Assembly: GCF_024502345.1 (NCBI RefSeq)
Contig: NZ_JALDNN010000001.1
DNA: 64,000 nt
Reading direction: 5' to 3' (one strand)
Origin: Escherichia coli
GTDB lineage: Bacteria; Pseudomonadota; Gammaproteobacteria; Enterobacterales; Enterobacteriaceae
Shown: in pieces, positions 27,787 through 60,502 of the stretch
How positions within the stretch are numbered: position 1 is the stretch's first letter
How the letters are laid out: each line of letters begins with the position of its first letter
Program-made: the position numbers and the translations under genes
Notes under the pieces: generated by a model
Databases searched by the model: none
Seen by the model: the letters and a program-made list of their open reading frames with translations, nothing else
Told to the model about the DNA's origin: nothing

Positions 27787-27796
27787 TCTTCCTGTC

Positions 27797-28410: not shown

Positions 28411-28509
28411 GACAAACCGCACCCAAGCCGGTAATTCAAAAATCACCCATTCAGGTGATTCCCAGCCACCAGCAATGCGCGAAAAATCGACAATGTTCCT
28501 CTGGAACAA

Positions 28510-28788
28510 ATGAAACGTAACCTGATAAAGGTGGTAAAAATGAAGCCTTATTTTGCTGCTTTGATGTTATCAGTCTCTGTTCTTCCTGCTTATGCTGGTC
28601 CGCTCGGTACTGCTGATAAAGCCGACCTACCGCAAAGCAATGTCTCCAGCCCAATGATGGCCCAGTCGCTCAGGCAACCAGACCTGCAACCGATATCGAC
28701 GGACAGTAAGACAGAATGTTTTCGCCTTTACACACCAGATCGCAAACCGGGGGTGAACTGCGTTCCTGATGGCTCAACAGGCCATTAA
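28510..28788 (+). CDS. yjbT: Small secreted protein of unknown function (YjbT-like); start may be at 28540
   Basis: 92 aa ORF; from Met11 reads MKPYFAALMLSVSVLPAYA then GPLG... (signal-peptide-like); position between psiE and yjbH. Confidence 0.6.
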   Translation: MKRNLIKVVKMKPYFAALMLSVSVLPAYAGPLGTADKADLPQSNVSSPMMAQSLRQPDLQPISTDSKTECFRLYTPDRKPGVNCVPDGSTGH

Positions 28789-28834
28789 GAATGAGGGTGC
28801 CAGTGATTGCGAAAACTGGCACCCTTCCCATGAC

Positions 28835-30931
28835 TTAGCGGAAATTGACGCTACGGTCGCTGGTCATGTCATACAACTGGAACTTACGCCCAAGTTGCTG
28901 ACCACCGTCACGCGTCAGCGGCGTCCAGCCAATCGCCGCACGGCTGCGTGTCGGGCCAGACGAGAAGAGATCCAACGGTACCGAGACATACACGCCTTTG
29001 GTGAAGTCCCCTTCGCCGTACTCCTCTTTCGAAACGTTGGTGATCGTGGCATAGCCACCCACCACCACGCCGCTGTCAAAGCGTTTAGCGATCTCCAGCG
29101 TGCCGCCTTTATCCCCTGCCAGATACTGCCCGACGCTGGCTTTCACCAACACGTCCTGGGCGAAAGATGGCGTCCAGTAGGCGGTCAGATGTCCGGTTTT
29201 CACGCTGTAGTCGGTGAATTTCATCATATCTTTTGCACTACGCCAGTCGCGCTGTTTAACGTAGTTGGCATCCAGACCAAACGCCCAGTTACTGTCCAGC
29301 GGACGATACAACACTTCGGCCCCCGCACCGCCAAACATGGTTTCGAGATAACCTCCATAGACCTGACCGTAGAAGCCGTTGCCCAGATGCTGGAAGTAGT
29401 TGGCTTGCAGGTTATTCACATAGACATCGTTCTGCACATACTCGCGCACATGGGTACGAACGCGCGGTAAGTGCGAGTCCTGCGGCGGATTGGTGTAGTT
29501 AAACTTGTCGTAGTTGTTGGCAAGATTTGCAAACAGGCTGCCGGTGGTCAGCAGATGGTCCGTCAGCCACAAATCTGCCGTTCCCATCACGCCCAGCTGA
29601 TACATGTAAAAGTTTTCCGGGCCACCGACCGACTGGTTCAGCACCGGATCGATATGGAAATCAAAGCGTGATTTGTCGATATACCAGCCCTGCTCGGTGG
29701 ACTGCGGAACCACTGGCTCGACGCGTTTTTGCGCCAGCTTCGTTTCGTGGCCCAACGGCTCTCCGGCGAGATGATTTTTCAGGCTGGCGACATCGGTTTC
29801 CGTCGTCACCTGCGGCATGTTAAGACGATTTTCCGTAATGCGGATCGTTTTGATCCCATCCGGCAGATCGTTCATCACGATCCGATTCGCACGGATGATC
29901 CCTTCGCGCGAATCACGATATTTCACCTGCTCGCCGGTAACATACAGCGTATCGCCTTTCGCCTGGATCTGTGGATCGGCAAGTCCAGCATTGTATTTCA
30001 ACAGCGTTAACTGATTCGCCACCACCGAATGCTGCAAAATGGCATCCTGCGGCTGCGGTTGATATTGCGGGCGGGCGTTATCGTTGTAAGACGGGCGCAG
30101 ATCGTTAAAGTTGGTGCGCAACGTAACGCCAAACATAAAGGTGTTGCCACGTTCATAGCTAAGGTTAACGTCGGCCCAATCGGTAACGCGATAAATCGCA
30201 CCGACGTTAAACTTACTTTTTTGCTCCAGCTTCCCGGCAAAATCCTGCTGATAATTATTGCCTTCATACTCCAGTTTCAGGCGCAGCGGTTGCCAGGGCG
30301 TCTGGTATTCCACGCCGCCAAACAGTGAGGCAGGACCGTGGAAAATCTGGCTACCGTCGATAGATCCCGCCTGTTTGTAGCTGTTATCGCGATAGCAATA
30401 TTTATCACTGGCTGAACAGAGCGGATTTTTCACATTACCGCTGGTGCCCAAATATCCCCAGCCCAGGCCGAGCGTAAAATCGAACGGCCCCCAGGCTTTG
30501 CTGGCAACAAGATATTCCGCATCAAACAGCCCCGTACCGCCGATATCCCGCGCACCAACCGCCACTTGCGGCAGCCAGTAACTCTCTTCCCACAAACGCA
30601 GTTTGAGATCGAAGGCTTTATCTTTATACGTTTGATCGCCAGAGAACGCTTCGACGCTGCTGTACTGCCGGGTGCGCACGTCGGTGTAGCGCAGCGTTGT
30701 TTCCAGCCACGGGAAGAGTTGCACTGAAGCTGAGTAATAACGGTACTGATCGTTATCGCGATAGTTCAGACTCAACTCCCCTTCCCGTGCCATACGCGCG
30801 GTGGGCGTTTGTAATAATCCTACGCCACCGAAATCCGACTGCGACGGACCAATGGGCGCAGGATATGTTTCGCCGTAGCAAGCTGTGCTAATGCCCAGCG
30901 CCAGTAAGCTAAGCAGATGTCTTTTTTTCAT
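28835..30931 (-). CDS. yjbH: Outer-membrane-associated protein YjbH (yjbEFGH exopolysaccharide locus)
   Basis: 698 aa [59 protein letters not shown]... Confidence 0.9.
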
Positions 30932-31668
30932 TATTGAGGTATCCGCTGCGTCAGAGTCTGAAGAATGTCGGCGTTAAGGGCATCAGGCGTCTCACTCCAG
31001 ACGGAGTCCGCGAGGCCAACATAAATAATGCTGCCGGGCATCGGCTCTACGTGACGCTTGTTCCAGTAAGCCACCGGCGCTTTTTGCGTGCGTCCGTCCG
31101 GGTAAACCACCCACGCGTAGCTGCGATCCGCACCGCTGAGCAGGCTCTGGTCAGAGAGATAGCTCGCCACGTCGCGACCTGGAGTGAATGGCTGCTTGCC
31201 AGGACGGCTGATAAGCCCGAACAACGTGACCGTGGACGGCGGTGGTCCGACCCACAGCGTGTAGTTGCCCTGCAACGGCGGGTTACCGCGTTCGGCAACG
31301 CGGACGATATCGGGATCAAGATTGATTTTTTGCCTGCCCGTCACTTTCAACGCCTGAATTTGCTGGCGTAAGGCGTTAATCGCGGCGGCATCGTCGGCGC
31401 TGGAATCTGCAGCCAGTTCTGCCAGCCGTGTCAGCAACGCCTGCTGCTGCCGCAATGCTGCCGCCGTTGCCAGCTCTTCGCTAATCACCGCACCAGGCCA
31501 CCAACTGTTTGCCAGCCGCGGCTGGCCTACCAGATCGATTAAATACTCTGCGCCCGTCAGCGTTTTGGCCTCACTGCTGCCATTGCTGAATACCTTGACG
31601 GTTCCCGCCGCGAAGACCGATGACGCCCCCACACTCAAAATCAATGCGACAATAGTTTGTTTAATCAT
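30931..31668 (-). CDS. yjbG: YjbG periplasmic protein (yjbEFGH operon)
   Basis: 245 aa [37 protein letters not shown]...; stop overlaps the yjbH start. Confidence 0.9.
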
Positions 31669-32303
31669 TGTTTTGCCGCCTTGATGAGAGTGGTTTTCAC
31701 CGGGAAATAATCCGCGCCGAGATACTGTTCCGACTGGCGAATTTGCCCTTCGCTGTCGATCCAGTAGCGGTTATGCCAGCGCGCCTGGTCGGTGGAGACT
31801 TCTTCGTCCAGCACGCGAACCGGGGTTTCATCGCTGCCGACCTTGACGGTATCGGTGCCATCCCATTTGAAGACTGAGCGTGCGGTGGCGTAGCGTACCT
31901 GCTGGTACTCGGTCCAGCCCATCGTGCGCGTCCATGTTGCACCATCAACAATTTGTGCGGGTTTAATCAGCGGGTCGGCGGCAAGGTTATTCACTTCAAT
32001 CAGGTTGTCGCCGCCAAGCAAAGTCTTCACCAGACGACCATGTTGTGTGACAAGAGTGGCTTGATCCTGAGTGACCCATTTTTGTTGTCCGTCTTCAGCG
32101 AAGGCCAGCACCACAAACAATTGCGGCCCGCCATTAAGCTGCATGTACTGGCTGGCGTAGGGCATATTTTGAATATCATCGTCCGTCAGCTGTACGCCTG
32201 GCGTGCCGAACAGACTGTCCCACAGTGAATTGCCCAGCTCTTTAGTCGTGGCTGAACAGGCCTGTAATAGCAGGCAGATAAGAATGAGTGCAGGTCGCTT
32301 CAC
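31665..32303 (-). CDS. yjbF: Lipoprotein YjbF (yjbEFGH operon); probable GTG start
   Basis: ...VKRPALILICLLLQACSATTKELGNSLWDSLFG... with lipobox LLQAC; ORF track start at 32333 is probably an extension. Confidence 0.8.
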   Translation of the reverse strand: MKRPALILICLLLQACSATTKELGNSLWDSLFGTPGVQLTDDDIQNMPYASQYMQLNGGPQLFVVLAFAEDGQQKWVTQDQATLVTQHGRLVKTLLGGDNLIEVNNLAADPLIKPAQIVDGATWTRTMGWTEYQQVRYATARSVFKWDGTDTVKVGSDETPVRVLDEEVSTDQARWHNRYWIDSEGQIRQSEQYLGADYFPVKTTLIKAAKQ

Positions 32304-32416
32304 GACTCTTCTCCAGAGGGGCAGAATAACCACACCGGAGTGTGGTTATGGTAAATCCCTTCATACTTCAAGCCACAGATGCAATGACTCAAATTATTTT
32401 GGGGATACATACTTTA

Positions 32417-32659
32417 TTACTGGGTACTGGTGGTCGTGGTTGTGGTGGTCCCGGTATTAGAACCATCACCGCCACCGGTTGCCGCGAGCGCGACACCCAC
32501 CGCCGAGCTTACGGTGCTGACGCTGGTCGCGGAGGAACTCCCCGCCGAAACCGACGTTGCTGCCGACCCTGCCGCTTCGCCCACCTGTACAGGTGCAGCC
32601 CACGCAGAAGTCGCCGCAAGCGCAGATATGGCAAAAATGCCATACAGAACTTTTTTCAT
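32417..32659 (-). CDS. yjbE: Small secreted Ser/Thr/Gly-rich protein YjbE
   Basis: 80 aa [80 protein letters not shown]. Confidence 0.85.
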
Positions 32660-32965
32660 AACAATTTCCCTTCATTGAATGAATGGAGATTTACCCAAAA
32701 ACATTTCGGGCGGGATCGAGTATACACAACTAAAGCATGCGAATTACGGCGCGGGGAATTAGCGATGGCGTTTTAGGATAATTGGAATGAATATCAAATA
32801 TAAGTTTCAGCTTATATTTAAATAACAATAAAAATCACAAACTTAAAATAAAAACAAAAGTAATTAATCTGCGTATTTTCCGAAATAAACAACGATTAAA
32901 AATCTATTTTAGGATTAACCTCACGGTATGATTTCCGTTAAATCACAGACAAGGGGATTTATCTG

Positions 32966-32996
32966 ATAAAAAAATGCCGACATAACGTCGGCATTG
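32966..32996 (-). terminator. Rho-independent terminator downstream of pgi
   Basis: Minus strand AATGCCGACGTTATGTCGGCATT hairpin followed by TTTTTTT. Confidence 0.7.
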
Positions 32997-33067
32997 TTAT
33001 TAAGGTTATTTAATCAATCGTGCTATGTATTAATTGCCGAATACGATGTACATATCGGCATCGACCT

Positions 33068-33146
33068 GTAGGCCTGATAAGACGCGACCGCGTCGCATCA
33101 GGCATCGGTTGCCGGATGCGGCGTGAACGCCTTATCCGGCCTACAT
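33068..33146. repeat. REP cluster downstream of pgi
   Basis: GTAGGCCTGATAAGACGCGACCGCGTCGCATCAGGC and GCCGGATGCGGCGTGAACGCCTTATCCGGCCTAC. Confidence 0.8.
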
Positions 33147-33170
33147 AGCGGCATCAGGCATGAACGATGA

Positions 33171-34820
33171 TTAACCGCGCCACGCTTTATAGCGGTTAAT
33201 CAGACCATTGGTCGAGCTATCGTGGCTGCTGATTTCTTTATCATCTTTCAGCTCTGGCAGAATACGGTTCGCCAGCTGTTTACCCAGTTCCACGCCCCAC
33301 TGGTCGAAGGTGAAGATGTTCAGGATCACGCCCTGAGTAAAGATTTTGTGCTCATACAGCGCAATCAACGCACCCAAGCTGAACGGAGTGATTTCACGCA
33401 GCAGGATGGAGTTGGTCGGGCGGTTACCTTCGAACACTTTGAACGGCACCACGTAGTCAAGCGTTGCCGGATCTTTACCCTGATCGCGATATTCCTGCTC
33501 AACCACTTCGCGGGATTTACCAAACGCCAGCGCTTCGGTCTGAGCAAAGAAGTTAGACAGCAGTTTCTGGTGATGATCAGAGAGCGGGTTATGGGTGATA
33601 GCCGGGGCGATGAAATCGCACGGTACCATTTTGGTTCCCTGATGGATCAGCTGATAGAACGCGTGCTGACCGTTAGTGCCTGGTTCACCCCAGATAATCG
33701 GGCCAGTCTGGTAATCCACAACGTTACCGTTACGGTCAACATACTTACCGTTGGACTCCATATTGCCCTGCTGGAAGTACGCCGCGAAACGGTGCATATA
33801 CTGGTCATACGGCAGAATCGCTTCAGTTTCCGCACCAAAGAAATTGTTGTACCAGATGCCAATCAGCGCCAACAGTACAGGCAGGTTTTTCTCGGCAGGC
33901 GTGGTGGAGAAATGCTTGTCCATCGCGTGTGCGCCAGAAAGCAGTTCAACGAAGTTATCAAAGCCGATGGAGAGAACAATCGACAGGCCAATCGCTGACC
34001 ACAAAGAGTAACGGCCGCCAACCCAGTCCCAGAACTCGAACATGTTGGCGGTATCAATACCAAACTCGCCAACGGCTTTGGCATTGGTGGAGAGCGCCGC
34101 AAAGTGTTTCGCAACGTGTTTTTCATCACCCGCCGCTTTCAGGAACCAGTCACGCGCGCTATGGGCGTTGGTCATGGTTTCCTGAGTGGTGAAGGTTTTA
34201 GATGCTACCAGGAACAGGGTAGTTTCCGGGTTTACTTTTTTCAGCACTTCCGCGATGTGGGTGCCATCGACGTTAGACACAAAGTGCATGTTCAGGTGGT
34301 TTTTGTACGGACGCAGTGCTTCGGTCACCATGTACGGGCCGAGGTCAGAACCGCCGATCCCGATGTTCACTACGTCAGTGATTGCTTTGCCGGTATAACC
34401 CTTCCACTCACCGGAGATAATCGCTTCCGAGAAGGTTTTCATCTTCTCCAGCACCGCGTTGACTTCCGGCATTACGTCTTTGCCATCAACCAGAATCGGG
34501 GTATTGCTACGGTTACGCAGCGCTACGTGCAGCACGGCGCGGTTTTCAGTGCGGTTGATCTTCTCGCCAGAGAACATCGACTTAATCGCGCCCGCCAGAT
34601 CGCACTCTTTCGCCAGATCTTGTAATTTCGCCAGCGTCTCTTCAGTGATGCGGTTTTTGGAGTAATCCACCAGCATCTGATCGTCGAAGGTTGCGGAGAA
34701 CTTAGAAAAACGATCGCCGTCTTTAGCAAAAAGATCGGCGATCGTAACGTCTTTCATTTCATCGAAGTGTTTCTGTAGTGCCTGCCAGGCAGCGGTCTGC
34801 GTTGGATTGATGTTTTTCAT
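33171..34820 (-). CDS. pgi: Glucose-6-phosphate isomerase
   Basis: [58 protein letters not shown]... 549 aa from the internal start. Confidence 0.95.
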
Positions 34821-36946: not shown

Positions 36947-37219
36947 ATGGCACTCCCGCGTATTACCCAAAAAGAGATGACTGAACGCGAGCAGCGTGAA
37001 CTTAAAACACTGCTGGATCGGGCGCGGATTGCGCATGGTCGCGTACTGACCAACTCCGAAACCAACAGCATTAAGAAAGAGTACATCGATAAATTAATGG
37101 TCGAGCGTGAGGCTGAAGCGAAAAAAGCCCGCCAGTTAAAGAAAAAGCAGGCTTATAAACCGGATCCTGAAGCGTCATTCAGTTGGTCGGCAAATACGTC
37201 GACGCGCGGCAGGCGCTGA
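36947..37219 (+). CDS. yjbD: Small uncharacterised protein YjbD
   Basis: 90 aa MALPRITQKEMTEREQRELKTLLDRARIAHGRVLTNSETNSIKKEYIDKLMVEREAEAKKARQ... Confidence 0.75.
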   Translation: MALPRITQKEMTEREQRELKTLLDRARIAHGRVLTNSETNSIKKEYIDKLMVEREAEAKKARQLKKKQAYKPDPEASFSWSANTSTRGRR

Positions 37220-38092
37220 TTAGCGCCCCTTCTTTTTACGCCCCGGCGAGGTAAAACGCTTACCGTTGGACGCCGGGCGACCGCCTTTTTCCGCCGTTTT
37301 TTCCATCTTAACGACTGGACGTTTGATGCCCGCCGTTTTCGGTTTAGCCTTCGCTTTAGGTTTTGCCTCGGAAGAGGAATTTTCAATGAGCTTAAAGAGG
37401 TCGATTAACTCATCGTCGGTTAAATCGCGCCACTCCCCCAGCGGAATGCCGCTTAAGCTGACGTTCATAATGCGCGTACGTTCCAGCTTTTTCACTTCAT
37501 AGCCGAAATGCTCGCACATGCGCCGGATCTGACGGTTCAGCCCCTGCACCAGGGTAATGCGGAAGACAAACGGCGCTTCTTTTTTGACTTTGCACTTTTT
37601 CGTCACCGTCCCGAGGATCGGCACCCCCGCCCCCATACCACGAATAAATTCATCGGTAATCGGTTTATCGACCGTCACCAGATACTCTTTCTCATGATCG
37701 TTACCCGCACGGAGGATCTTATTCACCAGATCGCCGTGATTGGTGAGGAAAATCAGCCCCTGGGAGTCTTTATCCAGGCGGCCAATCGGGAACACGCGTT
37801 TGCTGTGGTTAACGAAATCGACAATGTTATCGCGCTCGCCATCTTCGGTGGTGCTGACAATACCGACGGGCTTGTTCAGGGCGATAAGTACCAAATCTTC
37901 GGCTTCCCGAGGCTCAATCAACTGACCGTTTACTTTCACAATGTCGCCGGGTTTCACCTGATCGCCAATGGTGGCTCGCTTGCCATTAAGGAACACATTG
38001 CCTTGCTCGATATAGCGATCCGCTTCGCGGCGTGAGCAAATTCCGCTTTCGCTGATGTATTTATTTAAACGGACTGATGAGTCGGGCAGCAT
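37220..38092 (-). CDS. rluF: 23S rRNA pseudouridine synthase RluF
   Basis: 290 aa [56 protein letters not shown]... (S4 domain plus pseudouridine synthase). Confidence 0.9.
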
Positions 38093-38303: not shown

Positions 38304-38993
38304 ATGGAACTGCTTTTATTGAGTAACTCGACGCTGCCGGGTAAAGCCTGGCTGGAACATGCACTGCCGCTAATTGCTGAACAGTTGCAGGGTCGCCGCT
38401 CAGCGGTGTTTATCCCTTTCGCTGGCGTAACGCAGACCTGGGATGATTACACAGCGAAAACGGCTGCGGTTCTTGCTCCGCTGGGTGTTTCTGTCACCGG
38501 TATTCATAGCGTTGTCGATCCCGTTGCCGCGATTGAAAATGCTGAGATCGTGATTGTCGGCGGCGGGAATACTTTCCAGTTGCTGAAACAGTGCCGCGAG
38601 CGCGGGCTGCTGGCACCAATTACTGACGTGGTTAAACGTGGCGCACTGTATATTGGCTGGAGCGCAGGCGCTAACCTTGCTTGCCCAACCATTCGTACCA
38701 CCAACGATATGCCGATTGTCGATCCGCAAGGTTTCGATGCGCTAAATCTGTTCCCGCTGCAAATCAACCCGCACTTCACCAACGCGCTGCCGGAAGGCCA
38801 TAAAGGTGAAACCCGTGAACAGCGTATTCGCGAACTGCTGGTCGTCGCGCCAGAACTCACAATTATTGGTCTACCGGAAGGTAACTGGATCACAGTGAGT
38901 AAAGGTCACGCAACGCTGGGTGGCCCGAACACCACTTATGTGTTTAAGGCTGGTGAAGAAGCGGTTCCGCTGGAAGCGGGTCACCGTTTTTAA
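38304..38993 (+). CDS. pepE: Dipeptidase E (alpha-aspartyl dipeptidase)
   Basis: 229 aa [50 protein letters not shown]... Confidence 0.95.
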
Positions 38994-39000
38994 ATGAATT

Positions 39001-39070
39001 GCCGGATGCATGATCCGGCATCTTGTTCATAGTGCCTGATGCGACGCTTTACGCGTCTTATCAGGCCTAC
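39001..39070. repeat. REP-like palindromes between pepE and yjbB
   Basis: GCCGGATGCATGATCCGGC and GCCTGATGCGACGCTTTACGCGTCTTATCAGGCCTAC. Confidence 0.7.
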
Positions 39071-39082
39071 AGGGTCACGGTA

Positions 39083-40714
39083 TTAATACTCGTCCCGTCC
39101 TTCATCTTCATCCGGCTGTTCCAGCACACTGTAAGCCACCGAACAAAACAGCGAGTTCAGACGCTGCATATCTCCCAGTAAGCCTAAATGTAGCGAACTG
39201 GTTTCAATGCTCTGCACGTTTTGCTGATGCAGGCGATCGACGTGGGCGTGGGAATAGCGGCGATTAAGAATGCGAAAGCGATGCTTGCTGCGGCGCAAAC
39301 GACGGGCGCTGGTAACATCACCAGAGAAGAAAACCGACATTGCCAGTTTTAAATTACTGAGCAATTGCTCATAGAGCGCATCCAGTTCCTTCAAGCCATC
39401 AAGCGAAAATGCCCGCCGTGCTGCCAGCGATTTATCGGCAATTTCGCTCCCCATGCGCTCGACGATATCGGAGGCCTGTTCAAGGTTGAGCGACATTTCG
39501 ATGATCTCCGCCCAGCGGCGCGACTCTTCCTCCGCCAGCTCTTCTTTTGGCATCCGCGCCAGATACAGCTTAATGGCGGTATAGAGAACGTTGATATCAT
39601 CTGCCAGCTTACGCAGCTCTTTCTCCTGCCGTGGCTCGCCGTGCATCACTTTATTCAGCCCTTCCATCATCTGTTCCATGGCGTCGCCAATGCGCAGGGT
39701 TTCGCGCGCGGCGTTCGCCAGAGCAAGCGTGGGCGTATCCAGCGCGCTGACATCCAGATGTTTGGGTCGTAGCTGGGTATCCAGTTCCGGTTCATCGCGA
39801 ATAATCGTTTTGCAAAACCGTGCCATCGGGTCAACAAATGGCAGCATGACCAGGCAACGTACAAGGTTGTAGAAGACGTGGAAATAGATCACCAGTTCCG
39901 CTTTTGGCAATGGCAACTTCCCCATTGTCTCTGCCAGCAAATGGACAAACGGCAGGATAATCAGGCTACCCACCAGCTTAAACAGCAGACTACCCAGCGC
40001 GACACGGCGGGCTGCGGCATTGGCGGCACTGTTGTTGAGCATCGCCAGCAGGCCGGAACCGAGGTTAGCACCAATCACCAGACAGAGCGCCACGGGGAAG
40101 GAGATAATGCCTGCGGCGGTCAGAGTCGCAGTCAGCAGTACAGCAGCAAGGCTGGAGTAGCTGATAATGGCGAACATCGCGCCAATCAGCGCATCCAGCA
40201 GAATATCGCCGGTCAGCGAGGCAAAGATCACCTGAACGCCGTTTGCCTGGGTGATCGGCGTTACGGCCTGCACAATCAACTCCAGCGCCAGCAAAATCAG
40301 CCCAAGACCAATACCGACGCGGCCCAGTTGCCCGGCGCGTGACTGTTTGCGTCCGAGGAAAAAAATCACGCCGATAAAAATAAGTAACGGTGACAGCCAG
40401 GATAAGTCGAAGGTGAGAATACGCGCCATTAGCGCCGTCCCGACATCTGCCCCCAGCACAATGACCAGAGCCGGTGCGAGGGCTACCAGATCCTGAGCGA
40501 CGAACGAGGTCACCAGCATGGTGGTGGCATTACTGCTCTGTACCAGTGCGGTAACGCCGATCCCCGCGCAAAAGGCGAGCGGCTTTTTTTCGACGCTCCG
40601 GCTAAGGACAGTACGCAAACGCGCGCCGAAGACGCGCATTACGCCGGTTCGAACAATATGAGTCCCCCAGACCAGCAGGGCGACGGCAGAAAGCAGGTGA
40701 AGCAGCGTTAACAC
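39083..40714 (-). CDS. yjbB: Na+/phosphate cotransporter family membrane protein YjbB
   Basis: 543 aa MLTLLHLLSAVALLVWGTHIVRTGVMRVFGARLRTVLSRSVEKKPLAFCAGIGVTALVQSSNATT... Confidence 0.9.
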   Translation of the reverse strand: MLTLLHLLSAVALLVWGTHIVRTGVMRVFGARLRTVLSRSVEKKPLAFCAGIGVTALVQSSNATTMLVTSFVAQDLVALAPALVIVLGADVGTALMARILTFDLSWLSPLLIFIGVIFFLGRKQSRAGQLGRVGIGLGLILLALELIVQAVTPITQANGVQVIFASLTGDILLDALIGAMFAIISYSSLAAVLLTATLTAAGIISFPVALCLVIGANLGSGLLAMLNNSAANAAARRVALGSLLFKLVGSLIILPFVHLLAETMGKLPLPKAELVIYFHVFYNLVRCLVMLPFVDPMARFCKTIIRDEPELDTQLRPKHLDVSALDTPTLALANAARETLRIGDAMEQMMEGLNKVMHGEPRQEKELRKLADDINVLYTAIKLYLARMPKEELAEEESRRWAEIIEMSLNLEQASDIVERMGSEIADKSLAARRAFSLDGLKELDALYEQLLSNLKLAMSVFFSGDVTSARRLRRSKHRFRILNRRYSHAHVDRLHQQNVQSIETSSLHLGLLGDMQRLNSLFCSVAYSVLEQPDEDEGRDEY

Positions 40715-40877
40715 GAGTTCAGGTTCTCCTTATCGTTATATGTTCCTGAAGCAATTGAATGACCAAAGGACCGGAAACACGCTGACTGGCATCTTTACTG
40801 TGCCTTTTGACATTCATTTTTCCGGCTAAGATTATTCCAGCCTGTTTCCAGTATAAGTGTTTCATATTAATAAAGAG

Positions 40878-40902
40878 ACAGGGCACTCATTGAGCGCCCT
40901 GT
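40878..40902 (-). terminator. Possible terminator hairpin downstream of metH
   Basis: Imperfect palindrome ACAGGGCACTCATTGAGCGCCCTGT followed on the minus strand by CTCTTTATT. Confidence 0.45.
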
Positions 40903-40933
40903 TTGTTGTAAGGAAAAGTGACAGATTTGTGAA

Positions 40934-44617
<3,684 letters not shown>

Positions 44618-44816
44618 ACTTGCTCCCGACACGCTCAACCCAGATTTAATAAAAATTCAACAAACCATACTGGCATAAACGCATCTGTGGTAAAAGCGAC
44701 CACCACGCAACATGAGATTTGTTCAACATTAACTCATCGGATCAGTTCAGCAACTATTGCATTAGCTAACAATAAAAATGAAAATGATTTCCACGATACA
44801 GAAAAAGGAGACTGTC

Positions 44817-45641
44817 ATGGTCGCACCCATTCCCGCGAAACGCGGCAGAAAACCCGCCGTTGCCACCGCACCAGCGACTGGACAGGTTCAGTCTTTAACG
44901 CGTGGCCTGAAATTACTGGAGTGGATTGCCGAATCCAATGGCAGCGTGGCACTCACAGAGCTGGCGCAACAAGCCGGGTTACCCAATTCCACGACCCACC
45001 GCCTGCTAACCACGATGCAACAGCAGGGTTTCGTGCGTCAGGTCGGCGAACTGGGACATTGGGCAATCGGCGCACATGCCTTTATGGTCGGCAGCAGCTT
45101 TCTCCAGAGCCGTAATTTGTTAGCGATTGTTCACCCTATCCTGCGCAATTTAATGGAAGAGTCTGGCGAAACGGTCAATATGGCGGTGCTTGATCAAAGC
45201 GATCACGAAGCGATTATTATCGACCAGGTACAGTGTACGCATCTGATGCGAATGTCCGCGCCTATCGGCGGTAAATTGCCGATGCACGCTTCCGGTGCGG
45301 GTAAAGCCTTTTTAGCCCAACTGAGCGAAGAACAGGTGACGAAGCTGCTGCACCGCAAAGGGTTACATGCCTATACCCACGCAACGCTGGTGTCTCCTGT
45401 GCATTTAAAAGAAGATCTCGCCCAAACGCGCAAACGGGGTTATTCATTTGACGATGAGGAACATGCACTGGGGCTACGTTGCCTTGCAGCGTGTATTTTC
45501 GATGAGCACCGTGAACCGTTTGCCGCAATTTCTATTTCCGGACCGATTTCACGTATTACCGATGACCGCGTGACCGAGTTTGGCGCGATGGTGATCAAAG
45601 CGGCGAAGGAAGTGACGCTGGCGTACGGTGGAATGCGCTGA
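44817..45641 (+). CDS. iclR: Glyoxylate shunt repressor IclR
   Basis: ATG at 44817 preceded by AAGGAG; MVAPIPAKRGRKPAVATAPATGQVQSLTRGLKLLEWIAESNGSVALTELAQQAGLPNSTTHRLL... 274 aa. Confidence 0.95.
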   Translation: MVAPIPAKRGRKPAVATAPATGQVQSLTRGLKLLEWIAESNGSVALTELAQQAGLPNSTTHRLLTTMQQQGFVRQVGELGHWAIGAHAFMVGSSFLQSRNLLAIVHPILRNLMEESGETVNMAVLDQSDHEAIIIDQVQCTHLMRMSAPIGGKLPMHASGAGKAFLAQLSEEQVTKLLHRKGLHAYTHATLVSPVHLKEDLAQTRKRGYSFDDEEHALGLRCLAACIFDEHREPFAAISISGPISRITDDRVTEFGAMVIKAAKEVTLAYGGMR

Positions 45642-45957
45642 CTTTTTCTGGCGGGCAGAGGCAATATTCTGCCCATCATACCTGAGTGGCAATAGAATAA
45701 GGGTGTCTGTTAATCGCATTGACGCCAAAATAACTTAATGTCATACACTTCACACACTTTTATTAACTCAGCATTATTTTTAAACATCAAACCACTTAAT
45801 TATTAACAAAATCGCAAGATCTCATTCCACCGAAACTTTTACGGCTGCATTATGAGATTGAGCGATTTATGATATTTCTTTAGTTGTAATCATATTAAAT
45901 TTTTTCACTGTTCTGATAGTTAAAATTTAAGACATCAATAAACAATGAGATATTTAA

Positions 45958-49847
<3,890 letters not shown>

Positions 49848-49875
49848 TTAGCGCCCTCATCAGGAGCAGAGAATT

Positions 49876-50008
49876 GCCGGATGCGGCGTAAATGCCTTAT
49901 CCGGCCTACGTTCGGCAACGGCTGTAGGCATGATAAGACGCGCAAGCGTCGCATCAGGCATCGTGCACCGATTGCCGGATGCGGCGTGAACGCCTTATCC
50001 GGCCTACA
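49876..50008. repeat. REP/BIME cluster in the aceA-aceK intergenic region
   Basis: Three REP-like palindromes (GCCGGATGCGGCGTAAATGCCTTATCCGGCCTAC ... GTAGGCATGATAAGACGCGCAAGCGTCGCATCAGGC ... GCCGGATGCGGCGTGAACGCCTTATCCGGCCTAC). Confidence 0.85.
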
Positions 50009-50029
50009 GTCAGCAACGGTTGTTGTTGC

Positions 50030-51334
50030 TTAGAACTGCGATTCTTCAGTGGAGCCGGTCAGCGCGGTGACTGAAGACGTGCCGCCCTGAATAATAGTCG
50101 TCACTTTATCGAAGTAACCTGTACCCACTTCCTGCTGGTGAGATACGAAGGTGTAGCCATCTTTCGCGGCGGCGAATTCCGGCTGCTGCACTTTCTCAAC
50201 ATAGTGCTTCATACCCTCGCCCTGGGCATAGGCGTTTGCCAGGTCAAACATGTTGAACCACATGCTGTGGATACCTGCCAGGGTGATGAACTGGAACTTG
50301 TAGCCCATATCCGACAGCTGCTGCTGGAAGCTGGCAATAGTGTTGTCGTCGAGGTTTTTCTGCCAGTTGAACGACGGCGAGCAGTTATAAGCCAGCAGTT
50401 TGCCCGGATATTTCGCGTGGATAGCTTCCGCAAAGCGACGCGCCAGTTCCAGATCCGGCGTGGAGGTTTCACACCATACCAGGTCAGCATATGGCGCATA
50501 CGCCAGGCCACGGCTGATCGCTTGCTCAATGCCCGCATGAGTACGGAAGAAGCCTTCACTGGTACGCTCGCCGGTAATAAATTCGCTGTCATACGGGTCG
50601 CAATCGGAGGTGATCAGATCCGCTGCATCGGCATCGGTACGAGCAACCAGTAGGGTTGGAACGCCCGTCACGTCAGCTGCCAGACGCGCCGCGACCAGTT
50701 TCTGAATAGCTTCTTGAGTTGGCACCAAAACTTTGCCGCCCATGTGACCACATTTCTTCACTGACGCCAGCTGATCTTCGAAGTGAACTGCCGCTGCACC
50801 GGCTTCAATCATCGCTTTCATCAGTTCAAAGGCATTCAGGACACCGCCAAAACCGGCTTCCGCATCGGCAACGATCGGCAGGAAGTAATCGACATAGCGC
50901 GGATCGCCCGGCTCAATGCCCGCGGACCATTGGATCTGATCCGCACGGCGGAAAGTATTGTTGATCCGCTCCACCACAGCTGGCACCGAGTTTGCCGGAT
51001 AGAGCGACTGATCCGGATACATGCTGGCCGCCAGGTTAGCGTCCGCCGCTACCTGCCATCCCGACAGATAGACTGCTTCAATACCCGCTTTCGCCTGTTG
51101 CAGCGCCTGACCGCCAGTCAGTGCACCGAGGCTGTTGATGTAGCCTTTTTTCGACTCGCCATGCAGCAGACGCCACATTTTCGCCGCGCCCAGTTGCGCC
51201 AGGGTGCATTCAGGATTGACTGAACCGCGTAATTTCACCACATCTTCCGCGCTGTATGGGCGAGTAATGCCTTCCCAACGCGGTTGAGTCCACTCTTTCT
51301 GTAATTCTTCAATTTGTTGTGTACGGGTTTTCAT
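50030..51334 (-). CDS. aceA: Isocitrate lyase
   Basis: Internal start gives [59 protein letters not shown]... 434 aa. Confidence 0.95.
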
Positions 51335-51363
51335 GTGCAGATGCTCCATAGTTATGTGGTGGT

Positions 51364-52965
51364 TTACGCTAACAGGCGGTAGCCTGGCAGGGTCAGGAAA
51401 TCAATTAACTCATCGGAAGTGGTGATCTGTTCCATCAAGCGTGCGGCATCGTCAAAACGCCCCTGGGAGAAACGTTCTTCGCCCAGTTCGCTGGCAATGA
51501 CTTTCATCTCTTCGCCCAGCATCTGGCGGAACAAGGCTTTAGTTACCGGTTTGCCATTGCTCAACATTTTTTGATGATGGATCCACTGCCAGATTGAGGT
51601 ACGGGAAATTTCAGCCGTCGCCGCATCTTCCATCAGGCCATAAATCGGCACACAGCCGTTGCCAGAGATCCACGCTTCGATGTACTGCACGGCTACGCGA
51701 ATATTTGCGCGCATACCTTCTTCGGTGCGTTCACCGTCACAAGGTGCCAGTAGCTGATCGGCAGTAATCGGCGCGTCTTGTTCGCGCATCACTTCAAGCT
51801 GATTTTTACGGGAGCCGAGAATGTCGTTGAATACCGCCATTGCCGTATCCGCAAGGCCTGGGTGAGCGATCCATGTGCCATCGTGACCGTTATTGGCTTC
51901 CAGCGATTTATCCGCTTTTACTTTGTTGAGCACCTGGTTATTGTGCTCTTCATCTTTGCTCGGAATAAACGCCGCCATGCCGCCCATCGCAAAAGCACCG
52001 CGTTTATGGCAGGTTTTAATCAACAGGCGTGAGTAAGCATTCAGGAATGGTTTATCCATCGTCACTGCCTGTCTGTCTGGCAGGACGCGATCGGGATAGT
52101 TTTTCAACGTTTTGATATAGCTGAAGATGTAATCCCAACGACCGCAGTTCAGACCAACAATATGGTCACGCAGCACGTGAAGGATTTCATCCATCTGGAA
52201 CACGGCGGGCAGCGTTTCAATCAGCAACGTCGCCTTGATGGTGCCGCGCGGCAGATTAAAGCGATCTTCTGCATAGCTGAAGACTTCGCTCCACCAGGCC
52301 GCTTCCTGCCAGGACTGGGTTTTCGGCAGATAGAAATAGGGACCACTGCCCTTTGCCAACAGAGCCTGATAGTTGTGGAAGAAATAGAGCGCAAAATCAA
52401 ACAGGCTGCCGGGGATTGCCTCACCACGCCAGGTGACATGTTTTTCCGGCAAGTGCAGACCGCGTACCCGACAAATCAAAACCGCTGGATTGGGCTTGAG
52501 CTGGTAAATTTTGCCTGCTTCATTGGTATAGCTGATGGTACCGTTAACTGCATCACGCAGGTTAATTTGCCCGTCGATCACTTTGTTCCAGTCTGGTGCC
52601 AGTGAATCTTCGAAATCGGCCATAAAGACTTTCACATTGGCGTTCAGTGCGTTGATCACCATCTTGCGCTCAACCGGGCCAGTTATCTCGACTCGACGAT
52701 CTTGTAAGTCCGCGGGAATACCACGAATTTTCCAGTCTGTATCGCGAATGGAAGCTGTTTCCGAAATAAAATCAGGCAACGTTCCGTTATCAATATCTTG
52801 CTGCTGCTGAATGCGCGCTGCCAGAAGTTTATTGCGTTGTGCCGTAAAATGCGTCACCAGCTCAGTCAGAAATTCTACCGCTTCGGCAGTAAGAATTTGC
52901 TTCTCCTGCTCGCCATACGGCCTTATGAAAGCCAGTTCATCGGTTGTTGTCGCCTGTTCAGTCAT
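51364..52965 (-). CDS. aceB: Malate synthase A
   Basis: Internal start gives [40 protein letters not shown]... 533 aa. Confidence 0.95.
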
Positions 52966-53110
52966 CGTGCAGCTCCTCGTCATGGATCCGAAAACTTCCC
53001 CACTGTGAACGAAGGATCGTTGTGCGCTTTTCGTTCAGCACAACTAAGACTACTCATTTAAAATGCAAAATCAAAAACAATTTCCATTTTAATTAAAAAT
53101 ACTTGATAAC
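52966..53110 (-). promoter_or_regulatory. aceBAK promoter region; an IclR operator is expected near the -35
   Basis: AT-rich block (minus strand AAATGGAAATTGTTTTTGATTTTGCATTTTAAATGAGTAGTCTTAGTTGTGCTGAACG) about 60-130 bp upstream of aceB; assignment from recalled aceB promoter sequence, sites not individually verified. Confidence 0.5.
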
Positions 53111-53165
53111 TTATTGATAACAATATGAATAAAATTTATTCACCTCCTGAGGTGCGTTTCGGAAA

Positions 53166-53196
53166 TAAAAAAGGCACCCGAAAGTGCCTGAGGTAA
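53166..53196 (-). terminator. Rho-independent terminator downstream of metA
   Basis: Minus strand AGGCACTTTCGGGTGCCT hairpin followed by TTTTTTATTTCC. Confidence 0.7.
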
Positions 53197-53233
53197 GGTG
53201 CTGAATCGCTTAACGATCGACTATCACAGAAGA

Positions 53234-54163
53234 TTAATCCAGCGTTGGATTCATGTGCCGTAGATCGTATGGCGTGATCTGATAGACGTAATAGTTGAGC
53301 CAGTTGGTAAACAGCAAATTACCGTGACTACGCCAGCTCGCTCGCGGTGTATTTTGCGGATCATTGTGCGGGAAATAGTTATACGGTACTTCCGGGTCTA
53401 GTCCGGCTTCCACATCGCGGAAAAATTCCTGCGCCAGCGTTTGCGCATCATATTCGGGATGGCCCGTCACAAAGGCAATGCGCTTATCTTTGCTGGCAAA
53501 CAGATATGCATCCCCTTCTTCCGTCTCTGCCAGAATTTCCAGATCGGTGTAATCACGAATCAACGCTGCCGGGAAGTCAGCATAGCGCGAATGCGGTGCC
53601 AGGAATGAATCATCAAAGCCACGCGTCAGAAGCGCATGAGGATGGAGAATGTGATGCTCGTAAACGCCAGAGAGTTTGTCGGTGCGGGTTTGCTTAGGAA
53701 TGCCGTAGAGGATATTGAGCGCGGCCTGGACCGCCCAACAGACAAACAGCGTCGAGGTGACGTGATCTTTCGACCACTCCAGCACCTGTTTGATCTGCGG
53801 CCAGTAAGCGACATCATTAAACTCCACCAGGCCCAGCGGCGCACCAGTTACAATCAAACCGTCAAAGTTCTGATCCTGAATATCTTCAAAGTTACAGTAG
53901 AAGTTATTCAGATGCTCTGCGGGCGTGTTGCGCGATTCACGGGAATCGATGCGCAACAGCTGAATATCGACCTGCAAAGGTGAGTTTGAAAGCAGGCGCA
54001 GAAACTGATTTTCAGTTTCAATCTTCTTCGGCATCAGGTTAAGGATCAGAACCTTAAGTGGACGAATTTCCTGACCAGACGCACGAGAAGTTGTCATCAC
54101 AAAAACGTTTTCTTCACGCAAGAAATTGACGGCGGGTAGCTCGTCCGGCACACGAATCGGCAT
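53234..54163 (-). CDS. metA: Homoserine O-succinyltransferase
   Basis: 309 aa [54 protein letters not shown]... Confidence 0.95.
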
Positions 54164-54198
54164 AACCTGATTACCTCACTACATACGCTTATACGTTT

Positions 54199-54214
54199 AG
54201 ACATCCAGATAGCT
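54199..54214. promoter_or_regulatory. Candidate tandem MetJ boxes upstream of metA
   Basis: AGACATCCAGATAGCT, two 8 bp units resembling the met box AGACGTCT, about 40 bp upstream of the metA start. Confidence 0.4.
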
Positions 54215-54319
54215 GAAGATAACCAGAAAATTTGCCAATGTCGAGCCTGCATGTTGAAGGTGAGAAAGTTTCAAGGAAAAGACTACGTTAGAATATAAGA
54301 ATGACTAAAAGGAGAGAAA

Positions 54320-54763
54320 ATGGTTATTAGTATTCGCCGCTCACGGCATGAGGAAGGGGAGGAACTCGTTGCGATTTGGTGTCGTTCTGTCGATGCCACT
54401 CACGATTTTCTATCAGCAGAGTATCGGACCGAGCTGGAGGACCTAGTTCGTTCCTTCCTGCCGGAAGCGCCGTTGTGGGTCGCGGTTAATGAGCGGGATC
54501 AGCCGGTTGGATTTATGTTGCTAAGTGGGCAGCATATGGATGCGCTGTTTATCGATCCTGATGTGCGCGGCTGCGGCGTAGGTCGGGTGCTGGTGGAGCA
54601 TGCGCTCTCGATGGCACCGGAACTGACAACCAACGTTAATGAGCAAAATGAGCAGGCGGTTGGGTTCTATAAGAAGGTGGGTTTTAAGGTTACGGGACGC
54701 TCTGAGGTGGACGATTTGGGGAAACCGTATCCGTTGCTGAATCTGGCGTATGTGGGGGAATAA
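54320..54763 (+). CDS. yjaB: GNAT-family N-acetyltransferase YjaB
   Basis: 147 aa MVISIRRSRHEEGEELVAIWCRSVDATHDFLSAEYRTELEDLVRSFLPEAPLWVAVNERDQPVGFMLL... Confidence 0.9.
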   Translation: MVISIRRSRHEEGEELVAIWCRSVDATHDFLSAEYRTELEDLVRSFLPEAPLWVAVNERDQPVGFMLLSGQHMDALFIDPDVRGCGVGRVLVEHALSMAPELTTNVNEQNEQAVGFYKKVGFKVTGRSEVDDLGKPYPLLNLAYVGE

Positions 54764-54835
54764 GCCGCCCCTGACGTGCCTGCCCAGGCTGGAGAAGACG
54801 CGCCAGCGTCGCACCCGGCATTTTTTTCACCAACG

Positions 54836-54865
54836 CAAAAAGGCCATCCTGACGGATGGCCTTTC
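54836..54865 (-). terminator. rRNA operon terminator downstream of 5S rRNA
   Basis: Minus strand AAAGGCCATCCGTCAGGATGGCCTTTTT hairpin plus T-run. Confidence 0.75.
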
Positions 54866-54875
54866 GCTTGATTTG

Positions 54876-54995
54876 ATGCCTGGCAGTTCCCTACTCTCGC
54901 ATGGGGAGACCCCACACTACCATCGGCGCTACGGCGTTTCACTTCTGAGTTCGGCATGGGGTCAGGTGGGACCACCGCGCTACGGCCGCCAGGCA
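54876..54995 (-). rRNA. rrfE: 5S ribosomal RNA
   Basis: Reverse complement is TGCCTGGCGGCCGTAGCGCGGTGGTCCCACCTGACCCCATGCCGAACTCAGAAGTGAAACGCCGTAGCGCCGATGGTAGTGTGGGGTCTCCCCATGCGAGAGTAGGGAACTGCCAGGCAT, 120 nt. Confidence 0.97.
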
Positions 54996-55087
54996 AATTC
55001 TGTTTTATCAGACCGCTTCTGCGTTCTGATTTAATCTGTATCAGGCTGAAAATCTTCTCTCATCCGCCAAAACACCTTCGGCGTTGT

Positions 55088-60396: not shown

Positions 60397-60502
60397 ACAA
60401 TGCGGGCGAAAAATAAGGATGCCCCGTTAGGGGCGTTAGCTGAGTTTTTCGCGAAAAATTCAGCTAACGCTCTCTGTAATAGTCAAATCCAGGGGATTTA
60501 CC

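What the first reader, a model, noticed from the sequence alone, without database searches (positions are those of the whole stretch)
49876..50008. High density of REP/BIME palindromes in intergenic regions, largest cluster between aceA and aceK
At least eight intergenic regions in the window carry one to three REP units (for example 871-901, 13758-13856, 18343-18464, 23348-23470, 28355-28410, 33068-33146, 39001-39070, 49876-50008). They are a major source of the hairpins in the window and can be mistaken for terminators or CRISPR-like repeats. The intra-operon positions (malE-malF, aceA-aceK) fit their proposed role in differential mRNA stability.
Basis: partly seen in the sequence, partly recalled or inferred. 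Interest (0 to 1): 0.2.

Follow-up and report, generated by a model that had tools for sequence, protein, structure and literature searches.

The report
Ordinary REP/BIME repeats between genes
The flagged hairpins are the well-known REP/BIME palindromic repeats of Escherichia coli, including a three-unit cluster between aceA and aceK; they are real and correctly identified but ordinary, and their number at this spot varies from 0 to 5 among E. coli strains.

Summary
The window is an E. coli/Shigella-type chromosome, the reverse complement of K-12 4.204-4.268 Mb. About 0.02 such matches are expected by chance.

The aceA-aceK cluster (49876-50007) is a BIME-2, arranged Y-Z2-Y. K-12 has the same 16 units at the same sites.

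- "Largest cluster" is a tie. lamB-malM and malE-malF also hold three units.
- "High density" is 8 loci against about 4.9 expected (P=0.12).

Canonical REPs are not called terminator-like, because they lack a T tract.

Copy number at aceA-aceK is polymorphic. A systematic sample of 5,425 E. coli genomes gave 0, 1, 2, 3, 4 or 5 units. Five was the commonest; three, as here, made up about 19%. E. albertii has 11.

In 60 Enterobacteriaceae species this spacer is usually strongly structured, but by different palindrome families.

The most likely function is a 3' stabiliser and partial terminator for aceBA mRNA. It would act together with a terminator-like hairpin inside aceK. This is inferred, not shown. 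The finding is already known and of low interest.

The parts
49876..49909 (-). REP unit, type Y, aceK-proximal. It reads GTAG-first on the - strand, which is the mRNA-sense strand of aceBAK.
   Evidence: 32/34 matches to the Y consensus; nhmmer E=7.7e-11
49910..49923 (.). 14-nt tail-to-tail linker between Y and Z2 (GTTCGGCAACGGCT)
   Evidence: read from the sequence; conserved in K-12 and the 5-unit allele
49924..49959 (+). REP unit, type Z2, inverted relative to the flanking Y units
   Evidence: 34/36 matches to the Z2 consensus; nhmmer E=3.3e-8
49960..49973 (.). 14-nt head-to-head linker between Z2 and Y (ATCGTGCACCGATT)
   Evidence: sequence; the other BIME-2 loci in the window have 7 nt here (coordinates)
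49974..50007 (-). REP unit, type Y, aceA-proximal. It begins 22 nt after the aceA stop codon on the mRNA.
   Evidence: 34/34 matches to the Y consensus; distance to the stop codon. Together with the Z2 unit it is the Rfam naRNA4 RF02564 match at 49927-50004 (85.6 bits).
49488..49509 (-). Context, not a REP: an intrinsic-terminator-like hairpin plus T tract inside aceK, +338 to +359 from the ATG. It coincides with the 3' end of the K-12 sRNA AceK-int.
   Evidence: K-12 annotation of aceK-int at 4218879-4218963, mapped; PMC10687069
867..900 (+). Single Y REP 26 nt downstream of alr; the GTAG foot has degenerated to ATTG
13758..13856 (.). BIME-1 between convergent plsB and ubiA: Y (13758-13791), a 36-nt L linker with a near-consensus IHF site (ATTCAATAAATTG), and Z1 (13828-13856)
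18343..18467 (.). BIME-2 Y-Z2-Y between lamB and malM (intra-operon), 9 nt after the lamB stop
   Evidence: RF02564 78 bits
23348..23473 (.). BIME-2 Y-Z2-Y (third unit decayed) between malE and malF, 11 nt after the malE stop
   Evidence: RF02564 67.4 bits
28373..28409 (+). Single hybrid REP (Y-type arms, long loop) between the divergent starts of psiE and yjbT
33068..33144 (.). Z2-Y pair downstream of pgi (26 nt after its stop)
   Evidence: RF02564 79.5 bits
39001..39070 (.). Mini-palindrome TGCCGGATGCATGATCCGGCA (39001-39021) plus a Z2 unit (39034-39070) between convergent pepE and yjbB
54784..54819 (+). Decayed Z2-like REP remnant between yjaB and rrfE, at the site where K-12 carries yjaA.
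   Evidence: 29/36 matches; nhmmer E=0.007

Best explanation
The features are canonical E. coli REP (palindromic unit) elements organised as BIMEs. The aceA-aceK cluster is a three-unit BIME-2 (Y-Z2-Y).

At the DNA level they are non-autonomous repeats of the family recognised by the REP-associated tyrosine transposase (TnpA-REP/RAYT). Their tandem copy number changes by recombination between direct repeats. That step is inferred from a 98-bp Y+Z2 step between alleles.

At the RNA level the cluster is transcribed as part of the aceBAK mRNA and folds into very stable stem-loops just 3' of aceA. The folding is computed here. The most likely function is inferred by analogy with malE-malF and REP325, with probability about 0.5-0.6. 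On this reading the cluster acts as a barrier to 3'->5' exonucleases and as a partial, probably Rho-assisted, terminator. The aceB-aceA part of the transcript would then outlast and outnumber aceK.

Two other elements would act with it. One is an intrinsic-terminator-like hairpin inside aceK. The other is weak aceK translation.
For: Identity:
- Consensus matches of 27-34/34, 34-35/36 and 27/29 against 0.02 expected by chance.
- Profile E-values down to 3e-11.
- GTAG/CTAC foot present in all three aceA-aceK units.
- Alternating orientation and extragenic position.
- K-12 has the same 16 units at the same sites.
- Rfam RF02564 matches above the gathering score at four Y-Z2 pairs.
- The definitions of Y/Z1/Z2, BIME-1 and BIME-2 in PMC3333891 fit these units.

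Structure:
- The 191-nt mRNA-sense spacer folds at -86.4 kcal/mol, z=-5.6, and 0 of 200 shuffles fold as well.
- BIME windows rank 1, 2, 4 and 5 among all 44-nt windows by folding energy.

Copy-number change:
- Alleles differ by 98 bp, which is exactly one Y+Z2 unit.

Function:
- In 60 Enterobacteriaceae species with adjacent aceA-aceK, 41 spacers fold with z<-3, although the palindromes belong to different families.
- REP325 was shown to be both an upstream stabiliser and a partly Rho-dependent terminator (bioRxiv 10.64898/2026.03.23.713779).
- aceK transcript is far below aceA in BL21 (PMC5435950).
Against: No experiment here or in the papers I could read shows an effect of these REPs on aceBAK mRNA.

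About 14% of sampled E. coli genomes have no REP in this spacer and about 48% have five. The exact number is therefore not under tight constraint.

The published explanation for low aceK expression is inefficient translation plus premature termination within aceK. A terminator-like hairpin exists there (PMC5435950; PMC10687069).

Confidence: 0.85

Rival explanations
1. The REPs at aceA-aceK are selfish or neutral passengers. They would be REPIN-like elements spread by the RAYT transposase and expanded or contracted by recombination. They would be tolerated in a spacer that can accept them and have no role in aceBAK expression.
For: Copy number ranges from 0 to 5 in E. coli, 11 in E. albertii and 6 in E. 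whittamii. Several units elsewhere in the window are decaying: the GTAG foot is lost at 867, 13758, 18434 and 23440, and there is a remnant at 54784. Copy-number variation of BIME-2 between strains is a known general property (PMC3333891).
Against: The spacer is strongly structured in 41 of 60 species, using unrelated palindromes. This suggests selection for a hairpin, or at least a strong site preference. REPs at comparable intra-operon sites have measured effects (REP325: bioRxiv 10.64898/2026.03.23.713779; malE-malF: from my own knowledge of Newbury et al. 1987).
Confidence: 0.3
2. The REPs act at the DNA level. They would be binding sites for DNA gyrase, Pol I, IHF or HU-naRNA that organise supercoiling or nucleoid contacts, rather than acting through mRNA.
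For: Four Y-Z2 pairs match the Rfam naRNA4 family. The ubiA/plsB BIME-1 has a near-consensus IHF site in its L linker. The literature lists gyrase, Pol I and IHF binding to BIMEs (PMC3333891).
Against: The 2026 preprint found that deletion or overexpression of REP325/naRNA4 did not change nucleoid compaction, and that REP-REP contacts are not HU-dependent. BIME-2 units lack the IHF-binding L linker. Nothing in the sequence tests protein binding.
Confidence: 0.1
3. The REPs lower expression of the upstream gene by stalling terminating ribosomes when the hairpin lies within about 15 nt of the stop codon, triggering tmRNA action (Liang, Rudd and Deutscher 2015, cited from my own knowledge).
For: Several REPs in the window lie in that range: lamB 9 nt, malE 11 nt, plsB 12 nt, yjbB 12 nt and the pepE mini-palindrome 7 nt.
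Against: The aceA-aceK cluster begins 22 nt after the aceA stop. alr and pgi are at 26 nt. These lie outside the stated range. aceA is the most highly expressed product of the operon, which is the opposite of what stalling predicts.
Confidence: 0.05
4. The hairpins are Rho-independent terminators or a CRISPR-like array. The reader warned about these two misreadings.
For: They are stable G+C-rich hairpins. Y units recur at 91-98-bp spacing.
Against: No T tract follows any canonical REP, and the scan calls none of them. The repeats alternate in orientation. There are at most two direct copies per locus. The 'spacer' between them is itself a repeat (Z2) found at other loci.
Confidence: 0.01

Closest known systems
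E. coli REP / palindromic units (types Y, Z1, Z2)
   Same: Sequence, length (29-37 nt), imperfect palindrome with conserved mismatches, GTAG foot, extragenic position and multi-copy occurrence
   Different: Nothing of substance. A few units are decayed: the GTAG foot is lost in 4 of 16, and there is one remnant.
BIME-2 (tandem Y/Z2 mosaics; Bachellier et al.; PMC3333891)
   Same: Alternating inverted Y and Z2 units, short linkers, and tandem copy number that varies between strains at the same locus
   Different: The head-to-head linker at aceA-aceK is 14 nt, against 7 nt at the other three BIME-2 loci in the window. I did not formally type the linkers as s, l or r.
BIME-1 / RIP-RIB (Y-L-Z1 with an IHF site)
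   Same: The ubiA/plsB element (13758-13856) has Y, a 36-nt linker with ATTCAATAAATTG, and Z1
   Different: This does not apply to the aceA-aceK cluster. IHF binding was not tested.
REP325 / naRNA4 (Rfam RF02564)
   Same: The Y-Z2 pair at 49927-50004 matches the model over its full length (85.6 bits). Like REP325 in yjdMN, it is an intra-operon BIME-2.
   Different: It has 3 units rather than 12 and lies at a different locus. No evidence exists here for a discrete RNA product or for HU binding.
malE-malF REP stabiliser (Newbury et al. 1987; Khemici and Carpousis 2004; from my own knowledge)
   Same: An intra-operon BIME just 3' of a highly expressed upstream gene. The original element itself is in this window at 23348-23473.
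   Different: For aceA-aceK the stabilising effect has not been demonstrated. Published work stresses translation and termination within aceK.
REPIN/RAYT systems (Bertels and Rainey 2011; Nunvar 2010)
   Same: Inverted REP doublets fold into one long hairpin. The Y-Z2 pair does so in the MFE structure.
   Different: E. coli BIME-2 units are tandemly amplified rather than dispersed as single doublets. The RAYT gene is not in the window.

Membership tests
E. coli REP (PU) Y/Z1/Z2 | Match to the Y, Z1 or Z2 consensus sequence | tested here: met
   15 units at 72% identity or more by Hamming scan, against 0.02 expected. The aceA-aceK units score 32/34, 34/36 and 34/34. The profile search recovers 16 units with E from 3e-11 to 4e-4.
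E. coli REP (PU) Y/Z1/Z2 | Imperfect palindrome of 30-40 nt with conserved stem mismatches | tested here: met
   Among the 16 true units, 8-13 pairs with 1-3 mismatches per unit; most have 10-13 pairs and the short Z1 has 8. The alignment shows the GATG / TATC asymmetry.
E. coli REP (PU) Y/Z1/Z2 | Conserved GTAG tetranucleotide at the foot of the palindrome | tested here: met
   Present in all 3 aceA-aceK units and in 12 of 16 units in the window. Degenerate at 867, 13758, 18434 and 23440.
E. coli REP (PU) Y/Z1/Z2 | Extragenic location, usually 3' of genes | tested here: met
   All loci map between K-12 genes. They lie 7-43 nt after stop codons. The exception is 28373-28409, which lies between divergent gene starts.
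E. coli REP (PU) Y/Z1/Z2 | High copy number in the genome | tested here: met
K-12 has 584 units by PMC3333891.
BIME-2 | Y and Z2 units alternating in inverse orientation with short linkers | tested here: met
   Y(-) 14 nt Z2(+) 14 nt Y(-) at 49876-50007
BIME-2 | Tandem copy number varies between strains at one locus | tested here: met
   Span classes of -134, -98, -58, 0, +33 and +98 bp in a systematic sample of 58 informative genomes. The aligned alleles show 0, 1, 2, 3, 4 and 5 units.
BIME-1 (RIP/RIB) | Y and Z1 separated by a long L linker with an IHF site | tested here: not met
   Not met for the aceA-aceK cluster, which has Z2 and 14-nt linkers. Met at sequence level only for 13758-13856.
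naRNA4 (Rfam RF02564) | Covariance-model score above the gathering threshold | tested here: met
   85.6 bits against a gathering score of 59.5 at 49927-50004 (-). Three further hits. The model in effect describes any Y-Z2 pair.
naRNA4 (Rfam RF02564) | Discrete HU-associated RNA product | not testable with these tools
   Needs RNA and protein data. The 2026 preprint questions the proposed nucleoid role.
Rho-independent terminator | G+C-rich hairpin followed directly by a T/U tract | tested here: not met
   No canonical REP is called in the regions scanned, 13500-33400 and 38500-55000, which cover 15 of the 16 units. Only the mini-palindrome at 39000-39020 and unrelated sites are called. The unit at 867-900 was not scanned, but its flanks read show no T tract next to the hairpin.
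CRISPR array | Three or more direct repeats separated by unique spacers of similar length | tested here: not met
   At most two direct Y copies per locus. The sequence between them is an inverted Z2 repeat shared with other loci.

The most novel reading that the evidence does not exclude
The aceA-aceK spacer may be a conserved 'structured-spacer slot' across Enterobacteriaceae. Different palindromic repeat families would have filled it repeatedly: E. coli Y/Z2 REPs, genus-specific GTAG REP pairs, and CCCTCTCCC...GGGAGAGGG palindromes. Within Escherichia, the BIME-2 copy number (0-5 in E. coli, 11 in E. albertii) would then act as an evolvable rheostat. It would set the AceA:AceK ratio, and with it the isocitrate dehydrogenase phosphorylation switch.
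Probability: 0.15. Interest if true: 0.4.

Novelty: already known. Interest (0 to 1): 0.12.

Why it matters
REP/BIME elements are textbook features of E. coli. The same 16 units sit at the same sites in K-12, so the finding itself adds nothing new. Its practical value is for annotation hygiene: these hairpins should not be called terminators, sRNA genes (the Rfam naRNA4 hits) or CRISPR-like repeats.

One thing is mildly useful. The aceA-aceK spacer is a natural allelic series of 0 to 5 REP units within one species, and it is structured in most Enterobacteriaceae. That makes it a convenient natural test bed for an old, still unsettled question: whether REP number tunes the relative expression of genes within an operon.

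Tried and rejected
- A fuzzy-regex scan silently dropped several Y units, so I replaced it with Hamming, structural and nhmmer scans.
- The repeat finder in inverted mode does not report single REP hairpins, because the conserved mismatches break its seeds. I ranked hairpins with a sliding ViennaRNA fold instead.
- I thought some loci had not reached /data. In fact several records share one file.
- Chung et al. 1993 (PMC204903) is not held. I used the summary of it in PMC5435950 and made no claim about a REP deletion.
- Literature searches for malE-malF REP and for REP/tmRNA stalling gave nothing usable. Those papers are cited from my own knowledge.
- H74, where only the aceA side matched, looked like a rearrangement at the REP edge. 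It turned out to be an ordinary 4-unit allele in an arpA-less strain.
- The terminator and CRISPR readings were rejected at sequence level.
- I considered calling the 48-nt REP-free allele ancestral. It does share ...TAAGGAGAGGCG-ATG with Phytobacter. But REP-bearing spacers share ...GATGAGG... with Citrobacter koseri and Klebsiella indica, so the direction of change is unresolved.

Full report
**What the window is.** The window aligns end to end with the reverse complement of E. coli K-12 MG1655 4,204,035-4,267,787 at 97.8-99.0% identity. The gene order runs tyrB-alr-dnaB ... malM-lamB-malK / malEFG ... pgi, lysC ... metH, iclR, arpA, aceK-aceA-aceB, metA, rrnE, purHD. Rfam confirms the rrn operon, the lysC riboswitch and other landmarks.

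**Observation check.**
- A Hamming scan with the published Y, Z1 and Z2 consensus sequences finds 15 units at 72% identity or more. Fifty order-1 Markov simulations of the window give a mean of 0.02.
- A head/tail structural scan and a fuzzy scan add the hybrid unit at 28373-28409 and the indel-bearing Z2 at 39034-39070.
- An nhmmer profile built from the 16 units recovers all of them (E from 3e-11 to 4e-4). Its only other distinct locus above noise is a decayed remnant at 54786-54818 (E=0.007). The remaining listed matches are opposite-strand echoes of the same palindromic units or have E of about 2 or more.

**Gene contexts**:

| Window position | Flanking genes | Arrangement |
|---|---|---|
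| 867-900 | alr / tyrB | downstream of alr |
| 13758-13856 | plsB / ubiA | convergent |
| 18343-18467 | lamB / malM | intra-operon |
| 23348-23473 | malE / malF | intra-operon |
| 28373-28409 | psiE / yjbT | divergent starts |
| 33068-33144 | pgi / yjbE | downstream of pgi |
| 39001-39070 | pepE / yjbB | convergent |
| 49876-50007 | aceA / aceK | intra-operon |

**Anatomy of the flagged cluster.** The 182-nt aceA-aceK spacer (49848-50029) contains five parts:
- Y, 49876-49909
- a 14-nt linker
- an inverted Z2, 49924-49959
- a 14-nt linker
- Y, 49974-50007

All three units keep the GTAG/CTAC foot. This is the BIME-2 architecture as defined in PMC3333891. The ubiA/plsB element is instead a BIME-1: Y, a 36-nt L linker carrying ATTCAATAAATTG (one mismatch to the IHF consensus), and Z1.

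On the mRNA-sense (-) strand the spacer folds at -86.4 kcal/mol, z=-5.6. The aceA-proximal Y and the Z2 pair into one long hairpin. That pair is what Rfam scores as naRNA4 (85.6 bits). The model in effect recognises any Y-Z2 pair and also hits the lamB-malM, malE-malF and pgi BIMEs.

- *'Largest cluster'* is a tie. Three loci have three units, and aceA-aceK is only 6-7 bp longer.
- *'High density'* is modest. K-12 has 355 annotated REP loci and 584 units (bioRxiv 10.64898/2026.03.23.713779; PMC3333891). That gives 4.9 loci and 8 units expected per 64 kb, against 8 loci and 16 units seen. Poisson P(>=8 loci)=0.12.
- *'Major source of hairpins'* is true for the extreme tail. BIME windows rank 1, 2, 4 and 5 among all 44-nt windows. 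It is not true for the bulk, where they account for about 12 of 204 windows at or below -17 kcal/mol.
- *'Mistaken for terminators'*: the consensus scan calls none of the canonical REPs, because they lack a T tract. It calls only the mini-palindrome at 39000-39020.
- *The CRISPR reading* fails on orientation, copy number and the repeated 'spacer'.

**Comparison with reference strains.** K-12 carries the same 16 units at the same sites.

The aceA-aceK locus is nonetheless length-polymorphic across 5,425 complete E. coli genomes. A systematic 'spread' sample gave 58 informative rows. Aligning one representative of each class shows the unit counts:

| Span relative to the window | Rows | Units |
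|---|---|---|
| -134 bp | 8 | 0 (48-nt spacer with its own small hairpin and an AAGGAG Shine-Dalgarno) |
| -98 bp | 3 | 1 |
| -58 bp | 5 | 2 |
| 0 bp | 11 | 3 (window, K-12, O157:H7) |
| +33 bp | 3 | 4 |
| +98 bp | 28 | 5 |

- The 98-bp step is exactly one Y+Z2 unit, as expected for unequal recombination between direct repeats.
- The first Y of K-12 carries the SNPs of the first Y of the 5-unit allele. The first Y of the window carries those of the second Y. The two 3-unit alleles may therefore be different 98-bp deletions. This is an inference.
- Such inter-strain variation of BIME-2 is already described (PMC3333891).

**Outgroups.** One DNA-pattern scan of species-representative genomes used the AceA C-terminus as the pattern. 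It gave 60 Enterobacteriaceae loci with aceK directly downstream. Spacers range from 48 to 542 nt.
- E. albertii has 11 alternating Y/Z2 units and E. whittamii has 6.
- Salmonella, most Citrobacter and Klebsiella have a spacer of about 100 nt with a genus-type GTAG-tagged REP pair.
- Kluyvera, Pluralibacter, Lelliottia and others have CCCTCTCCC...GGGAGAGGG palindromes. 'boxC-like' is my label from memory.
- 41 of 60 spacers fold with z<-3, with a median of -4.65 (mononucleotide shuffles).

A stable hairpin just 3' of aceA is therefore the conserved property, not the REP sequence. This could reflect selection for an RNA structure, or a site that attracts palindromic elements. The data do not separate the two.

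**Mechanism.**

*Shown here:*
- sequence identity to REP consensus
- BIME-2 architecture
- predicted RNA stability
- copy-number polymorphism
- a structured spacer across genera

*Inferred:* the transcribed BIME protects aceBA mRNA from 3'->5' decay and partly terminates transcription before aceK.
- The analogy is with REP325. That element stabilises the upstream gene and is a partly Rho-dependent terminator.
- The second analogy is with malE-malF (my own knowledge of Newbury et al. 1987).

*Against a sole role for the REPs:*
- Published work assigns the roughly 300-fold AceA:AceK difference to inefficient translation and premature termination within aceK (PMC5435950 citing Chung et al. 1993).
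- The window does contain an intrinsic-terminator-like hairpin with a T tract inside aceK at 49509-49488.
- That hairpin coincides with the 3' end of the K-12 sRNA AceK-int. This 3' end is conserved across genera (PMC10687069).
- The ribosome-stalling mechanism is proposed for REPs within about 15 nt of a stop codon (Liang et al. 2015, my own knowledge). It could apply to lamB (9 nt), malE (11), plsB (12) and yjbB (12). It does not apply to aceA (22 nt).

**Verdict.** The element is a known kind at a known place, so novelty is 'already known' and interest is low.

The only mildly new material is the natural 0-to-5 (to 11) allelic series and the cross-genus structured spacer. Together they would make the old question of REP dosage and operon polarity directly testable.

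**Side observations.** They are listed under Noticed in passing: lamB::IS1, the absent yjaA, the broken arpA, a K-12-specific palindromic insert, and others.

Noticed in passing
window 19341-20108: A 768-bp IS1 copy is inserted in lamB, with a 9-bp target duplication (ACCGAAGCC), so the phage lambda receptor / maltoporin gene is disrupted. The lamB/IS1 junction is found in none of the 5,426 complete E. coli genomes. This suggests a Shigella or otherwise unsampled lineage.
   Followed up: partly
window 54759-54870: yjaA, a marker used in Clermont phylogroup typing, is absent. 112 bp replace 521 bp of K-12. The replacement holds a decayed Z2-like REP remnant (54784-54819) and the rrnE terminator hairpin (54839-54864).
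   Followed up: partly
window 45958-48142: arpA/espL4, intact at 728 aa in K-12, is split into three ORFs (45958-47265, 47355-47789, 47786-48142). It is therefore probably a pseudogene, as annotated in the closest E. coli hit, FDAARGOS_943.
   Followed up: no
window 37211-37220 (K-12 4231235-4231358): K-12 carries an insert of about 113 bp between rluF and yjbD that the window lacks. The insert contains a CCCCTCACCC...GGGGCGAGGGG palindrome (boxC-like, my label). This is a strain difference in a different small-repeat family.
   Followed up: partly
window 49488-49509 (- strand): An intrinsic-terminator-like hairpin plus T tract lies inside the aceK coding region, +338 to +359 from the ATG. It matches the 3' end of the annotated K-12 sRNA AceK-int and the reported premature termination within aceK.
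   Followed up: partly
window 28373-28409: A REP sits between the divergent 5' ends of psiE and yjbT rather than 3' of a gene. This is an unusual position for a REP. The same unit is present in K-12.
   Followed up: no
window 60433-60470: A 38-bp near-perfect palindrome (GCGTTAGCTGAGTTTTTCGCGAAAAATTCAGCTAACGC) lies about 33 nt upstream of the purH start. It is the third most stable 44-nt window in the sequence. It is not a REP, and its function was not examined.
   Followed up: no
loci L012, L074, L032, L011, L019, L022, L024 (one search set): In 60 Enterobacteriaceae species the aceA-aceK spacer ranges from 48 to 542 nt and is usually occupied by a palindromic element of some family. E. albertii has 11 Y/Z2 REPs. 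Salmonella and Citrobacter have a genus-type REP pair. Kluyvera and Pluralibacter have CCCTCTCCC...GGGAGAGGG palindromes. 41 of 60 spacers fold with z<-3.
   Followed up: partly
L010 (E. coli FDAARGOS_1288) vs L024 (Phytobacter): The REP-free 48-nt E. coli allele ends ...TAAGGAGAGGCG-ATG, a canonical Shine-Dalgarno, exactly like the 48-nt Phytobacter spacer. REP-bearing alleles end ...GATGAGGGCGCTAA-ATG. Two old spacer lineages seem to coexist within E. coli.
   Followed up: partly
window 18394-18464, 23400-23470, 33071-33141, 49927-50004: Rfam family naRNA4 (RF02564) scores above its gathering threshold at every Y-Z2 pair. An automatic annotation would therefore call four 'sRNA genes' here that are simply BIME-2 repeats.
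   Followed up: yes
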